Source: an uncultured Clostridia bacterium
GTDB taxonomy: Bacteria; Bacillota; Clostridia; Oscillospirales; UBA644
Direction of reading: 5' to 3'
NCBI GenBank assembly: GCA_947305805.1
Contig: CAMZEM010000003.1
Coordinates: forward strand, 1-53,719
DNA length: 53,719 bases
This document shows, in pieces, positions 18,607 to 21,408 of this stretch; the stretch's first letter is position 1, and each line of letters opens with the position of its first letter. Under the pieces are notes generated by a model that was not told the origin of the DNA, made no database searches, and saw only the letters and a list, made by a program, of their open reading frames with translations. A program made the translations under genes and the position numbers.

Positions 18607-19236
18607 TCAGATATTCACGCACGTTATTCCGTTAAGCAGCATGTTGTATGCCGAAAACGTCTGAAAATCCTCGGCGTTGTGCGATTCCGCGGAAAAAGTG
18701 CGGCATGCGTTTATAACAACTATTATTCTCGGCTTTAAGTCTCTCTCGTTGAAATACGAACGAAGCGACAGCGCAAGCTGCATAACGTCTATATCGGTAA
18801 GCGCGCCTGCGATGATATAATTGTCAAGCGTATCGGTATTTGCGGCAAACCATCTTAAAAAATCGGTTGAAAACATTGCGTTCGCGCAGTTTTTAACGAC
18901 TATTTCGGCGTTTGAGGCAAATCTGTCGAGCTCGGCAAGAATCTGACATTCGTCGTATTCAACGCAGTGTTCGGGAAAAATGCGCAGCTCCGCGCTTTTT
19001 TTTGTGTGATAATCAACCGCAAAAATGCGTCTGGCGTGAAGAAGATATTCGTTTACCCTCACAAGCTGCGGTATTGCCGAGGCAAACTGCGGCGACCAGA
19101 GCCCGCCCTTGCGGAAAAAGCCCTCGGAAGTGTTTATGTTTATAATTGCCGTGCGGTCGGGATCGAGAAGAAGCTTTCTGATATTCAGCGTTCTTTCTGA
19201 AACGATCCTTTCAAAATTGCCGGTAAAAATTCCCAT
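18607..19236 (-). CDS. Isochorismatase/nicotinamidase-fold protein with altered catalytic residues
   Basis: DYH...FPEHC metal motif, VKN, GALTDIDVMQ and IIVVINAC match the cysteine-hydrolase fold. Confidence 0.8.
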   Translation of the reverse strand: MGIFTGNFERIVSERTLNIRKLLLDPDRTAIININTSEGFFRKGGLWSPQFASAIPQLVRVNEYLLHARRIFAVDYHTKKSAELRIFPEHCVEYDECQILAELDRFASNAEIVVKNCANAMFSTDFLRWFAANTDTLDNYIIAGALTDIDVMQLALSLRSYFNERDLKPRIIVVINACRTFSAESHNAEDFQTFSAYNMLLNGITCVNI

Positions 19237-19237
19237 A

Positions 19238-20662
19238 TCAGCCCTTGCACCTGTCTATAAACGCATTTCTGTCCTTTTCACGGAAGACACTCGTGCCCAA
19301 AACGGCAAGCGTTACGCCGGAAGACGAAACAAGCCCGATATTGGAAGCGGTGATGCCTCCGTCTGCCTCTATGTCAACGCGAAGAGCGCGTCTTCTCAGC
19401 TCACCGCGAAGTTTTCTTGCCTTTTCAAGACAGCTTTCTATCAGCGGCTGACCGCCGAAACCGGGTTCCACCGTCATTACCAGCACCGCGGAAAGTCTGT
19501 CGAGATAGGGATAAACGACTTCTGCGGGAGTTTTGGGTTTTATTGCAATTGCAGGTTTTACGTGGAAAGATTCCATAAGCGTTATGAGCTTTGAAATATC
19601 CTCGTCTACCTCGTAATGAACGCTGATAAGTTCCGCGCCCGCCTTTGCAAACGGTTCTATAAAACGCGACGGGTTTGACACCATGAGATGAACGTCGAGA
19701 GGAACTTCGGTTATTCTGTGCACCGCCGCCGCCACCGGAACGCCGAAAGTAATATTCGGCACGAAGTGCCCGTCCATAACGTCGATATGTATGTAATCCG
19801 AATGCGAAACGGAGGTTACCTCGTCTTCAAGGCGCGCCGCGTTGCAGGAAAGAAGCGAAACGGATATTTTAATATTCTTTTTTACCGCATAAAACTCATC
19901 GGGAACGCTGCCCTGAGATGAGAAAAGAGACGGCTCCGCCTGCAAAAGCTTTGCCGTAAAAGCGGCGCAGCGTTCCGCGTCAACTATAAGACATTCGCTT
20001 TCGGCAAAAACGCCTTTGTGCGCAATTCCCTTTGAAAGAAGCGGTTCTTCGAGTTTGCCGTAGTTTTCCGAAACGTCGCCGCGGGAGCTGTAATGGCGTT
20101 TTATGTTTCTGTCTTCGCAGCGGCCGTCGGGCATAATTATTTTAACGGGAAGTACGTCGGGAGAAAGTCTGTCGGGAACCCCCGCCCATTCCTCCGTACC
20201 GCGGATGAAAGACGACCCTTTGAGTCCGCAGCCGATAAAGAGCAGTTTTGCATGATAATCGACAAGCCTGCCTATACATCCGTTTCTCGGACACGGAGTT
20301 TCCGCTCCGTCGTCGCATCTTACGTATTCAGCCGCTTTTTTGCCGAGCGCGGCAACCGAAAATGTCGGATGAAGCGAGCGCAGAACGCCTTCCCGCCTTA
20401 AAAAGAGCTGAGAAAAAAGTCCGCTGCACGTATCTTCGGTTTCGGGATCGAAAAGGAAATGGTCGCCGTTTACCGTTTTCCACGTGTGCGTCGGAAAAAC
20501 GAGAAGTCCGTCGGAAAAATATTCGCATACGGCGTCAAGAGCGGCGCTTATACCGCCTTCGATATCACCGTTTATTCCGTCGGCAGCGACAAAAACCGTA
20601 TCCCACGGGAAAAAATTCATTTCGGCAAGTTGCCTTTTCAGATCGTCTTTGTTAAACATCAC
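19238..20662 (-). CDS. rpe: Fusion of an AAC(3)-family acetyltransferase-like domain and ribulose-phosphate 3-epimerase
   Basis: N-terminal half: PTHTW, RSLHPT, LLFIG. C-terminal half: HIDVMDGHFVPN, DVHLM, MTVEPGFGGQ, ADGGI. One uninterrupted 474-aa frame. Confidence 0.88.
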   Translation of the reverse strand: MMFNKDDLKRQLAEMNFFPWDTVFVAADGINGDIEGGISAALDAVCEYFSDGLLVFPTHTWKTVNGDHFLFDPETEDTCSGLFSQLFLRREGVLRSLHPTFSVAALGKKAAEYVRCDDGAETPCPRNGCIGRLVDYHAKLLFIGCGLKGSSFIRGTEEWAGVPDRLSPDVLPVKIIMPDGRCEDRNIKRHYSSRGDVSENYGKLEEPLLSKGIAHKGVFAESECLIVDAERCAAFTAKLLQAEPSLFSSQGSVPDEFYAVKKNIKISVSLLSCNAARLEDEVTSVSHSDYIHIDVMDGHFVPNITFGVPVAAAVHRITEVPLDVHLMVSNPSRFIEPFAKAGAELISVHYEVDEDISKLITLMESFHVKPAIAIKPKTPAEVVYPYLDRLSAVLVMTVEPGFGGQPLIESCLEKARKLRGELRRRALRVDIEADGGITASNIGLVSSSGVTLAVLGTSVFREKDRNAFIDRCKG

Positions 20663-21408
20663 AGCTTTATCCTTACGATTTGTTTGTTTTCTGTATCAGC
20701 ATACACGGCGTTTATTTCGGGCGAAACGTCCTCCTGCTCGAGCGGAACGAACTCGCGCGTCATAAACCTTGCGATTGCCTGATTTTTCTTTGCGCCGAGA
20801 ACCGATTCGGAAGAGCCCGTCATTCCAACGTCGGTTATATACGCCGTTCCTTCGGGCAAAAACCGCTCGTCGGCGGTCTGAACATGGGTATGAGTTCCGA
20901 AAACGCAGCCGACTCTGCCGTCAAGATAATACCCCAGAGCTTTTTTCTCGCTCGTTGCCTCGGCATGGAAATCTATTATGATAAAAGTGTCTTTGTATTC
21001 GTTTACTATTTTGTCCGCGGCATAAAACGCATTGTCGGCAGGATCGAGATTCACCTGCCCCGCAAGCGACACCACCGTAACGTCGCCTTTCGGGGTTCTG
21101 ACCGTCACGGCGCCTTTTCCGGGACTGCGGGACGGATAGTTTGCCGGCCGGACTATATACGGACAGTCGTCGAGAAATCCGTATATGCTTTGCTGGCGGA
21201 ACGCGTGATTTCCGAGAGTTATTACGTCAACTCCCGCAAAATGAAGCGATTCCGCCTCCGCAGGCGTTATTCCGTTTTTAGGGTTGACGTTTTCGGCGTT
21301 TGCAACAACGATATCGCTCGGATACTCCGAAACGAGCTTTTTCATATTCGCTTTAAGCCGGTCCGCGCCGGCTCTGCCGACGATATCTCCGATAAACAGT
21401 ACTTTCAT
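20659..21408 (-). CDS. ymdB: YmdB-family metallophosphoesterase
   Basis: FIGDIVG, NAEN, TLGNH, DFHAEATSEK, GTHTHVQTAD and TDVGMTG. Confidence 0.93.
   Translation of the reverse strand: MKVLFIGDIVGRAGADRLKANMKKLVSEYPSDIVVANAENVNPKNGITPAEAESLHFAGVDVITLGNHAFRQQSIYGFLDDCPYIVRPANYPSRSPGKGAVTVRTPKGDVTVVSLAGQVNLDPADNAFYAADKIVNEYKDTFIIIDFHAEATSEKKALGYYLDGRVGCVFGTHTHVQTADERFLPEGTAYITDVGMTGSSESVLGAKKNQAIARFMTREFVPLEQEDVSPEINAVYADTENKQIVRIKL

What the first reader, a model, noticed from the sequence alone, without database searches (positions are those of the whole stretch)
19238..20662. In-frame fusion of a degenerate AAC(3)-like domain to ribulose-phosphate 3-epimerase
Seen: about 260 aa of AAC(3)-like sequence runs without a stop into a complete Rpe (EFYAVKKNIKISVS junction). 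There is no in-frame ATG at the junction; the nearby ATG reads M-R-stop. The acetyltransferase half has AAD for the family HSS, HPTFS for HPTHS, and SFIRGTEE for TxxHxxE. Established: the TxxHxxE His is the proposed catalytic residue in the YokD/BA2930/FrbF family, and Rpe is normally single-domain. Inference: a non-catalytic acyl-CoA or ligand-binding module may regulate a pentose-phosphate enzyme. I know of no described fusion of this kind.
Basis: partly seen in the sequence, partly recalled or inferred. Interest (0 to 1): 0.7.

Follow-up and report, generated by a model that had tools for sequence, protein, structure and literature searches.

The report
Dead acetyltransferase domain fused to Rpe
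In one group of uncultured ruminant-gut Clostridia, the cell's only ribulose-phosphate 3-epimerase carries an N-terminal aminoglycoside-acetyltransferase-fold domain; in this genome's lineage that domain has lost its active site but is still kept intact by selection.

Summary
Window 19238-20659 (- strand, 473 aa from the ATG) is one open frame. It holds an Antibiotic_NAT domain (Pfam E 8e-37), a 3-residue linker (KKN) and a complete Rpe (TIGR01163 above cut-off).

- **Not an artefact.** Contigs from three independent studies cross the junction without indels. Eleven orthologues (52-92% identity) have the same architecture and synteny.
- **Role.** It is the only Rpe and the only Antibiotic_NAT in the genome.
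- **Origin.** The fusion arose once, inside one genus, by insertion of a NAT gene exactly between ymdB and rpe. Seven of 16 species in the genus and all other genera keep a stand-alone rpe there.
- **Decay is derived.** Early-branching fusion lineages keep HSS, HPTHS and the catalytic His. Only the window's subclade lost them: HSSMK became xAD-x, and His became Arg twice independently.
- **Selection.** The NAT half is not neutral there (omega 0.12, against 0.03 in intact lineages and 0.05 for Rpe). The relaxation is concentrated on former active-site positions.
- **Translation.** The former rpe start codon and ribosome-binding site are gone.

Best reading: a catalytically dead relic domain locked onto an essential enzyme. 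A regulatory ligand-sensing role is possible but unsupported. The architecture appears undescribed; interest is moderate.

The parts
19238..20659 (-). Whole fusion gene (473 codons plus stop), NAT-linker-Rpe. The start ATG at 20659 overlaps the ymdB stop (TGATG).
19883..20659 (-). Antibiotic_NAT (AAC(3)-fold) domain, residues 1-259. It ends at EFYAV, where stand-alone homologues end.
   Evidence: Pfam PF02522 E 8e-37. AF2 pLDDT above 90 and Foldseek 6mmz TMt 0.82. Alignment A1.
20576..20590 (-). VAADG, which replaces the family-invariant VHSSMK loop (one-residue deletion, Lys lost, Asp gained).
20357..20371 (-). HPTFS in place of HPTHS (second His to Phe, codon TTT).
20189..20212 (-). SFIRGTEE in place of TxΦHΦxE. 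The catalytic His is Arg153 (CGC, 20201-20203); the Glu is kept; Thr is Ser.
   Evidence: motif role from PMC8956665 and PMC5884680
19874..19882 (-). Three-residue basic linker KKN (RRK in other lineages). It is probably the translated remnant of the purine-rich rpe ribosome-binding region.
   Evidence: inference for the origin
19871..19873 (-). Ile263 (ATT) at the position of the ancestral rpe start codon. ATG is still present in three clade-B species.
19241..19873 (-). Complete ribulose-phosphate 3-epimerase domain, residues 263-473. The HxD, DVHLM, MTVEPGFGGQ, EADGG and GTS motifs are intact.
20659..21408 (-). Upstream ymdB-type metallophosphoesterase. In species without the fusion it directly precedes rpe.
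18607..19236 (-). Downstream isochorismatase-like gene, a conserved operon partner in every relative examined.

Best explanation
The gene encodes one polypeptide. An N-terminal Antibiotic_NAT-fold domain (residues 1-259) is joined by three residues to the organism's only, catalytically complete ribulose-phosphate 3-epimerase.

History (shown): in an ancestor within this genus of ruminant-gut Clostridia, a NAT gene landed between ymdB and rpe in the conserved ymdB-rpe-isochorismatase-like-recA cluster. It lost its stop codon and became fused to rpe. Early-branching fusion lineages still carry a canonical NAT domain that is very strongly constrained.

On the branch leading to the window's subclade, the NAT active site was abandoned. 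The HSSMK loop was rebuilt with a deletion. HPTHS, an EE pair, a Trp and the oxyanion Thr changed. The catalytic His was replaced by Arg at least twice independently. These positions now evolve faster than any other class of site in the domain.

Mechanism (inferred): in the window's organism the domain is a pseudoenzyme that no longer transfers acetyl groups. It is kept folded and full-length because it is entrenched:
- Rpe has lost its own start codon and ribosome-binding site, so the NAT 5' end supplies translation initiation, coupled to ymdB.
- A misfolding or truncated N-terminal half would damage an essential single-copy enzyme.

On this reading Rpe works as an ordinary metal-dependent epimerase, and the NAT part is a passenger or scaffold rather than a switch.
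For: - **Real and conserved.** Both domains score well above their curated cut-offs. Independent contigs from three studies cross the junction without indels. Eleven fused orthologues at 52-92% identity share identical synteny.
- **Sole copy.** There is one PF00834 hit and one PF02522 hit in the 90.8%-complete genome, and transketolase and RpiB are present.
- **Single origin inside the genus.** 9 of 16 species of the genus are fused. The other 7, and all other genera, have ymdB directly followed by a stand-alone rpe with its own SD and ATG. The fused Rpe sequences are monophyletic at 98/97 and the fused NAT domains at 100/100.
- **Decay is derived.** P0010, clade B and P0006 keep HSS, HPTHS and FxHGxEE; only clade A lost them. 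The NAT stem branch of clade A is 0.58 substitutions per site, against about 0.1 on the equivalent branch for Rpe.
- **Parallel loss of the His.** CAC became CGC in L002 and separately in L005/L006, while L003 and L004 keep His.
- **Selection.** NAT omega is 0.116 in clade A, against 0.032 in clade B and 0.051 for Rpe. Fisher tests of pN against pS give p below 1e-20. Within clade A, the 27 formerly conserved but changed sites have pN 0.279, against 0.024 for the same sites in clade B. Family-variable sites are unchanged (0.127 against 0.136). 53 core sites are invariant.
- **Domain integrity.** There is no length erosion: 473 aa in all of clade A.
- **No separate Rpe translation.** The ancestral Met is ATT or ATA in clade A, GCG in L102 and CTT in L104. 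There is no SD-like motif or in-frame start near the junction.
- **Role of the lost residues.** His-to-Ala mutants are catalytically inactive, and Thr, His or Glu mutants retain 3-5% activity (PMC8956665, PMC5884680).
- **No link to rpe elsewhere.** Stand-alone homologues sit in unrelated, variable neighbourhoods.
Against: - Purifying selection on the scaffold cannot by itself separate 'must stay folded' from 'has a new job'.
- Some replacements are fixed across clade A (Ala26, Asp116-Asp117 for Glu-Glu, Glu220-Ser221). The acidic pair keeps its charge, which could mean that an amine-binding pocket survives.
- Arg replaced the catalytic His twice, which might be adaptive rather than neutral.
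- In clade B the intact NAT domain (omega 0.03) is more constrained than Rpe itself. The fusion may therefore have had a real bifunctional rationale that I cannot identify.
- The set of 'lost' sites was chosen from the same alignment, so its high within-clade rate is partly an ascertainment effect.
- No protein-level, RNA-level or biochemical data exist. Domain packing in the AF2 model is uncertain (pTM 0.59).
Confidence: 0.6

Rival explanations
1. Regulatory module. The inactivated NAT domain still binds acetyl-CoA, another acyl-CoA or a small amine, and allosterically tunes the fused Rpe. This would couple pentose-phosphate flux to acyl-CoA or amine status.
For: - The domain is retained full-length under purifying selection (omega 0.12).
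- Several clade-specific replacements are fixed, and the acidic pair is conserved in charge (EE to DD).
- The linker is very short and conserved in length, so the two domains are held close together.
- Other Rpe fusions with a regulatory domain exist, for example Rpe-CBS in P0259.
Against: - The family-invariant HSSMK loop is destroyed by a deletion, loss of Lys and gain of Asp.
- Former active-site positions are now the most variable in the domain within clade A (pN 0.279), the opposite of what a conserved sensor pocket predicts.
- Stand-alone homologues show no gene-neighbourhood link to rpe or the pentose-phosphate pathway.
- In Rpe TIM barrels the N-terminus lies at the face opposite the active site. 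This is general structural knowledge and was not tested here.
Confidence: 0.2
2. Still an enzyme. The NAT domain of clade A has shifted to a different chemistry or substrate that does not need the His/Glu dyad, for example substrate-assisted catalysis or a different acyl donor.
For: - Glu156, a Ser at the oxyanion Thr position and 53 other conserved residues are retained.
- Two clade-A species (L003, L004) still have the His.
- Family members such as FrbF, YokD and BA2930 act on non-aminoglycoside substrates or have unknown substrates (PMC8956665).
Against: - Several independent catalytic or cofactor motifs were lost together, and they continue to vary among close relatives: A/T/S/V at position 25, F/Y/H at 100, R/H at 153, H/R/F/Y at 189.
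- An enzyme with a new fixed mechanism would show a new conserved constellation of residues.
- In studied members, mutants at this His are inactive, and Thr, His or Glu mutants keep 3-5% activity.
Confidence: 0.1
3. Made as one chain but processed. The dibasic linker (KK or RR) is cleaved after translation, so the cell actually contains a free Rpe and a free NAT-fold protein.
For: A basic di- or tri-peptide is conserved at the junction in all lineages: KKN/S/T, RRK, RKP.
Against: - No protease or precedent is known for this.
- The basic residues are more simply explained as the translated purine-rich former ribosome-binding site.
- If the NAT part were released and useless, selection on its fold would be weaker than observed.
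Confidence: 0.05
4. Artefact: an assembly chimera or sequencing frameshift has merged two separate genes.
For: None was found. The source is a metagenome-assembled genome, so this had to be checked.
Against: - Independent assemblies from three studies are collinear across the junction.
- The same frame is kept in 11 lineages down to 52% identity, with codon-level purifying selection on both halves.
Confidence: 0.01

Closest known systems
BA2930 (B. anthracis, PDB 3E4F) and YokD (B. subtilis, 2NYG): Antibiotic_NAT-fold proteins without aminoglycoside activity
   Same: These are the closest solved sequence relatives of the intact homologues of this domain. They share the fold (Foldseek TMt about 0.8) and are likewise not aminoglycoside-resistance enzymes (PMC8956665).
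   Different: They are stand-alone proteins with intact HSS and TxxHxxE motifs. The window's domain lacks both and is fused to Rpe.
AAC(3) aminoglycoside 3-N-acetyltransferases (e.g. meta-AAC0038 6MMZ/6MN0, AAC(3)-VIa, -IIIb, -IVa)
   Same: Same Pfam family (PF02522) and same fold. The motif positions can be aligned residue by residue.
   Different: NCBIfam AAC_3 scores 53 bits against a cut-off of 270. The catalytic His is Arg and the HSS loop is lost. Nothing suggests a resistance function.
Canonical bacterial ribulose-phosphate 3-epimerase (e.g. S. pyogenes 2FLI, N. gonorrhoeae 5UMF)
   Same: The C-terminal 211 residues are a full-length Rpe TIM barrel with all metal and catalytic motifs. 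It occupies the same genomic slot as the stand-alone rpe of sister species.
   Different: It has no start codon of its own and carries a 262-residue N-terminal extension. The first strand is altered (ISVSLLSCNAA against IAPSILSADFA). It scores only just above the TIGR01163 cut-off.
Other Rpe domain fusions in the protein databases (6PGL/Glucosamine_iso-Rpe P0238, RuvX-Rpe P0172, Rpe-CBS P0259)
   Same: They show that Rpe is occasionally found fused to a second domain.
   Different: The partner domains are different and the proteins are unrelated. Among the 150 best matches in a scan of 1.84 billion cluster representatives, only one other representative (P0004, same clade) spans NAT plus Rpe.
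Pseudoenzyme domains retained within multidomain enzymes (general concept)
   Same: A recognisable catalytic fold has lost its catalytic residues but stays under purifying selection.
   Different: Here the whole trajectory is preserved among living species of one genus: no fusion, then fusion with an intact domain, then fusion with a dead domain.

Membership tests
Ribulose-phosphate 3-epimerase (PF00834 / TIGR01163) | Profile score above the curated cut-offs over the full model length | tested here: met
   PF00834 scores 207 bits (cut-off 21) over model positions 1-198 of 198. TIGR01163 scores 222.9 against 212.6.
Ribulose-phosphate 3-epimerase (PF00834 / TIGR01163) | TIM-barrel fold superposable on solved Rpe | tested here: met
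   Foldseek 2fli gives E 3e-20 and TM (target) 0.86-0.88. pLDDT of this half is mostly 85-97 but 65-79 in the first 50 residues.
Ribulose-phosphate 3-epimerase (PF00834 / TIGR01163) | Metal-binding and acid-base residues (His-x-Asp, His of DxHLM, Asp of xDGG) and the phosphate-binding GGQ and G(S/T) loops | tested here: met
   HIDVMDGHFVPN, DVHLM, MTVEPGFGGQ, EADGG and GTSVF align with 5UMF and 1H1Y.
Ribulose-phosphate 3-epimerase (PF00834 / TIGR01163) | Ru5P/Xu5P epimerase activity | not testable with these tools
   Indirect only: it is the sole PF00834 gene in a genome that has transketolase and RpiB.
Antibiotic_NAT (PF02522) | Profile score above the gathering cut-off, and the family fold | tested here: met
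   127 bits against 25. Foldseek 6mmz TMt 0.82 and 3e4f 0.80. pLDDT is above 90 across the domain.
Antibiotic_NAT (PF02522) | Catalytic His of the TxΦHΦxE motif (completely conserved in the family; the His-to-Ala mutant is inactive) | tested here: not met
   Arg153 (CGC) aligns with the His. Role from PMC8956665.
Antibiotic_NAT (PF02522) | Glu of the dyad, and the Thr that stabilises the oxyanion | tested here: inconclusive
   Glu156 is kept. Thr is Ser150 (Ala in some clade-A species). One characterised family member also has Ser here.
Antibiotic_NAT (PF02522) | N-terminal (V/I)HSS(M/L)(K/S) loop after strand 1 | tested here: not met
   The window has VAAD-G with a one-residue deletion. H, S, S and K are each 100% conserved and M 93% in 41 intact homologues, and the loop is present in BA2930. 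Its role in CoA binding rests on my recollection and was not verified here.
AAC(3) aminoglycoside-resistance enzymes (NCBIfam NF033082 and subtypes) | Score above the curated equivalog cut-off | tested here: not met
   AAC_3 scores 53.3 bits against a cut-off of 270. AAC_3_IV scores 43.7 against 420.
AAC(3) aminoglycoside-resistance enzymes (NCBIfam NF033082 and subtypes) | Acetylation of aminoglycosides / resistance phenotype | not testable with these tools
   Judged unlikely, because the closest solved relatives (BA2930, YokD) lack this activity and the catalytic His is absent.

The most novel reading that the evidence does not exclude
The inactivated NAT domain has been repurposed as a ligand sensor, for a CoA thioester or a cationic amine held by the conserved acidic pair. 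It would allosterically control the cell's only Rpe, and so be a previously unknown regulatory input into the non-oxidative pentose-phosphate pathway. The intact-NAT lineages would represent a bifunctional precursor.
Probability: 0.15. Interest if true: 0.7.

Novelty: new variant of a known kind. Interest (0 to 1): 0.42.

Why it matters
Both domains belong to well-known families, so no new biochemistry is demonstrated. Three points give it some value.

- **Annotation.** The NAT-Rpe architecture appears undescribed and confined to one genus of rumen Clostridia. Pipelines may mislabel it as an aminoglycoside-resistance gene, which it almost certainly is not.
- **A full evolutionary series.** Living species preserve every stage: stand-alone rpe, then a fusion with an intact and strongly constrained acetyltransferase, then a fusion with a dead but conserved domain. 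The catalytic His was lost in parallel. This makes a compact natural test case for how pseudoenzyme domains arise and become entrenched on essential enzymes.
- **Cheap to test.** Regulation versus relic can be settled with an E. coli rpe-deletion complementation and ligand-binding assays.

Tried and rejected
- **Assembly or frameshift artefact.** Rejected. Contigs from three independent studies are collinear across the junction and the frame is conserved in 11 lineages.
- **Neutral decay of the N-terminal half.** Rejected. Omega is about 0.1 and Fisher p is below 1e-20.
- **Separate internal translation of Rpe.** Rejected for clade A. There is no in-frame ATG, GTG or TTG and no SD-like motif from -15 to +45 nt. 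The GGAGGA noted by another reader in the 478-aa orthologue lies 27 nt upstream and has no start codon at a suitable distance.
- **A widespread functional link between this NAT subfamily and rpe.** Not found. The neighbourhoods of three stand-alone homologues are unrelated to each other and to pentose metabolism.
- **A second, independent NAT-Rpe fusion elsewhere.** Not found among the 150 best matches of the exhaustive representative scan, and all fused hits of the word-index search belong to this clade.
- **Transcript evidence.** No RNA run holding the sequence was found.
- **Literature on the fusion.** Nothing relevant turned up.
- **The FrbF structure paper (PMC3195558)**, wanted for CoA-contact residues, is not held. 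The two AAC(3) papers I read do not list the contacts of the HSS loop.
- **3D mapping of the changed sites.** I could not map the changed residues in 3D or inspect inter-domain confidence: the scripting machine holds sequences only, and the fold tool returns no coordinates or inter-domain error.
Full report
**What is there.** The minus strand of window 19238-20662 is one uninterrupted frame.
- The first in-frame ATG, at 20659, is the likely start. It overlaps the stop of the upstream ymdB-type gene as TGATG, has AAGGA 9-10 nt upstream, and is the start in all orthologues. The product is 473 aa.
- Pfam places Antibiotic_NAT on residues 32-240 (E 8e-37) and Ribul_P_3_epim on 265-460 (E 2e-61).
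- NCBIfam's equivalog model for rpe is passed (222.9 against 212.6). The AAC(3) resistance models fall far below their cut-offs (53 against 270).
- An AlphaFold2 model has pLDDT above 90 throughout the NAT half. Foldseek matches the two halves to solved AAC(3)-fold proteins (6MMZ TM 0.82, BA2930 0.80) and to Rpe (2FLI TM 0.86-0.88).
VAADG replaces VHSSMK, with one residue deleted. HPTFS replaces HPTHS. In SFIRGTEE, Arg153 (CGC, 20201-20203) aligns with the catalytic His.
- The Rpe motifs HxD, DVHLM, MTVEPGFGGQ, EADGG and GTS all align with solved enzymes.

**It is not an artefact.** Contigs assembled independently from three public bovine or other gut metagenome runs of different studies cover 19411-20662, 19238-19936 and 19279-20606. 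They show only point differences and no indel. None of the differences touches codon 153. The same 471-478-aa architecture is found in nine protein clusters at 52-100% identity, in eight other species of the same genus, and on contigs carrying P0006 and P0010.

**Genomic and phylogenetic setting.**
- The organism is an uncultured Clostridia lineage from ruminant guts. Relatives are titled goat omasum, 'Oscillospiraceae' and similar.
- The fused gene is the only Rpe and the only Antibiotic_NAT in the 1.92-Mb, 90.8%-complete genome. That genome also has transketolase and RpiB.
- The order ispD | ymdB - rpe - isochorismatase-like - recA is conserved throughout the family.
- In 7 of 16 species of the genus, and in all other genera examined, ymdB is followed after 16-50 nt by a stand-alone rpe with a GGAG-type ribosome-binding site and an ATG (M-K/L/Q-V/I-A/S-P-S-L-L-S-C-D-F).
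- In 9 of 16 species, about 780 nt of NAT coding sequence sits exactly in that gap, in frame with rpe.
- The NAT part ends (EFYAV) where stand-alone homologues end. Three or four basic residues follow (KKN, RRK). Then comes the position of the old rpe Met, which is ATG in three species but ATT or ATA, GCG or CTT in the others.
- I infer that the basic linker is the translated remnant of the purine-rich rpe ribosome-binding region.
- Trees of the Rpe part (fusion clade 98/97) and of the NAT part (100/100, nested among stand-alone homologues from other organisms) indicate a single acquisition and a single fusion.
- Among the 150 best matches in a scan of 1.84 billion cluster representatives, only one other representative, from the same clade, spans both domains. 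A literature search found no description.

**The degeneracy is late and lineage-specific.** In the Rpe tree the branching order is P0010, then clade B (L007-L010), then P0006, then clade A (the window plus four species). All but clade A have canonical VHSSMK, HPTHS and TF(I/V)HGxEE.
- I took the 82 positions that are at least 85% conserved in nine intact fusions plus 32 stand-alone homologues.
- Clade A keeps 54 of them unchanged. These include FPTH, RSxHPT, TPCPxxGCxG and EEW..P.R.
- Clade A has changed 28. These are the whole HSSMK loop, His100, Glu116-Glu117 (to Asp-Asp), Trp129, Thr150, His153, His189 and Gly-Asp-Ala 219-221.
- The NAT stem branch of clade A is 0.58 substitutions per site, against about 0.1 for the corresponding Rpe branch.
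- His153 became Arg by the same CAC-to-CGC change in the window's species and separately in L005/L006. L003 (92% identical to the window) and L004 still have His.

**Selection.**

| Measure | Clade A (dead NAT) | Clade B (intact NAT) |
|---|---|---|
| NAT omega (GY+F3X4) | 0.116 | 0.032 |
| Rpe omega | 0.051 | 0.104 |
| pN at the 27 formerly conserved, changed sites (pS 0.58 in clade A) | 0.279 | 0.024 |
| pN at family-variable sites | 0.127 | 0.136 |
| pN at the 53 retained sites | 0.002 | 0.023 |

- Pairwise Nei-Gojobori values for unsaturated pairs give NAT dN/dS of 0.083 (window against L003, dS 0.63) and 0.073 (L005 against L006). Rpe gives about 0.05.
- Synonymous differences exceed non-synonymous ones, with Fisher p below 1e-20. 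The 'neutral N-terminal half' refutation criterion is therefore not met.
- The relaxation is localised. Constraint on the former active site has collapsed, while constraint on the rest of the fold is unchanged.
- One caveat applies: the 'changed' class was defined on the same alignment, which inflates its rate somewhat.
- No length erosion has occurred in clade A.

**Interpretation.**
- Published work shows that the His/Glu dyad and the Thr of TxΦHΦxE carry catalysis. His-to-Ala mutants are used as inactive enzymes, and single mutants keep 3-5% activity (PMC8956665, PMC5884680). Together with the loss of the invariant HSSMK loop, this makes the window's NAT domain very probably catalytically dead.
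- The domain persists, in my reading, because it is entrenched. Rpe no longer has a start codon, an SD-like motif or any in-frame alternative start near the junction. Its translation therefore depends on the NAT 5' end, which is coupled to ymdB. A destabilised N-terminal half would also compromise a single-copy enzyme of central metabolism.
- This explains a conserved scaffold with a free-running former active site.
Fixed clade-specific replacements, a conserved acidic pair, the very short linker and the parallel His-to-Arg change could all fit a repurposed pocket.
- It has no positive support, however. Neighbourhoods of stand-alone homologues give no link to rpe.
- Why the intact NAT of clade B is even more constrained than Rpe is unexplained.

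**Comparison with known systems.**
- The C-terminal half is a member of the Rpe family by every testable criterion.
- The N-terminal half is a member of the Antibiotic_NAT fold family by profile and by structure, but it fails the catalytic-His and HSS tests. It should be called an Antibiotic_NAT-like pseudoenzyme domain, not an AAC(3).
- Its closest solved relatives are BA2930 and YokD, which have no aminoglycoside activity.
- Rpe fusions with other partners exist in the databases: 6PGL-Rpe, RuvX-Rpe and Rpe-CBS. 'Rpe is normally single-domain' is therefore true only as a rule.

**Verdict.** This is a real, conserved, lineage-restricted and apparently undescribed domain architecture. It is a new variant of known kinds, with a well-resolved evolutionary history and a probable pseudoenzyme relic. 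Interest is moderate, mainly as a model of fusion-driven entrenchment and as a caution for resistance-gene annotation.

Noticed in passing
window 18607-19236 (-), and L002-L021, L102, L104: In the isochorismatase-like gene just downstream of the fusion, the nucleophile position (TDIxV) is Asp in all fusion-bearing species and in two stand-alone-rpe species of the genus. In the other stand-alone-rpe relatives it is Cys or Ser. The first motif is NT (INT, LNT, MNT or VNT) in all but two relatives, which have VD or ID. This gene may be another family-wide non-canonical or pseudo-enzyme in the same operon.
   Followed up: partly
window 20657-20661: The ymdB stop and the fusion gene's start overlap as TGATG, which suggests translational coupling. 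In species without the fusion, rpe is separated from ymdB by 16-50 nt and has its own SD.
   Followed up: partly
window 19844-19873 (Rpe first strand): The fused Rpe has ISVSLLSCNAA where stand-alone relatives have I(A/S)PSLLSCDFA. The Pro, conserved in all 11 stand-alone relatives and both aligned solved Rpe, is Val or Thr (Ile in P0006), and DF is NA. This change is shared with P0006, so it predates the NAT decay.
   Followed up: no
protein P0038 (438 aa, ENA metagenome): This homologue of the NAT subfamily is fused at its N-terminus to a GrpB domain (PF04229). It is a different fusion partner for the same acetyltransferase subfamily.
   Followed up: no
proteins P0238, P0172, P0259: Other Rpe fusions are present in the databases: Glucosamine_iso/6PGL-Rpe (472 aa), RuvX-Rpe (362 aa) and Rpe-CBS pair (376 aa).
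   Followed up: no
NAT domain residues C78, H97, C123, C128 (window about 20273-20428): The invariant residues Cys78, His58/His97, TPCP and GC(W/I)G are retained in all homologues, including the degenerate clade. They might form a structural metal site. This was not examined in the model.
   Followed up: no
G001, G003, G004 (same genus, other contigs): Three species of the genus with a stand-alone rpe carry a separate, distant Antibiotic_NAT gene elsewhere (31-35% identity to the window's domain). It is a different paralogue, not the donor of the fused domain.
   Followed up: no
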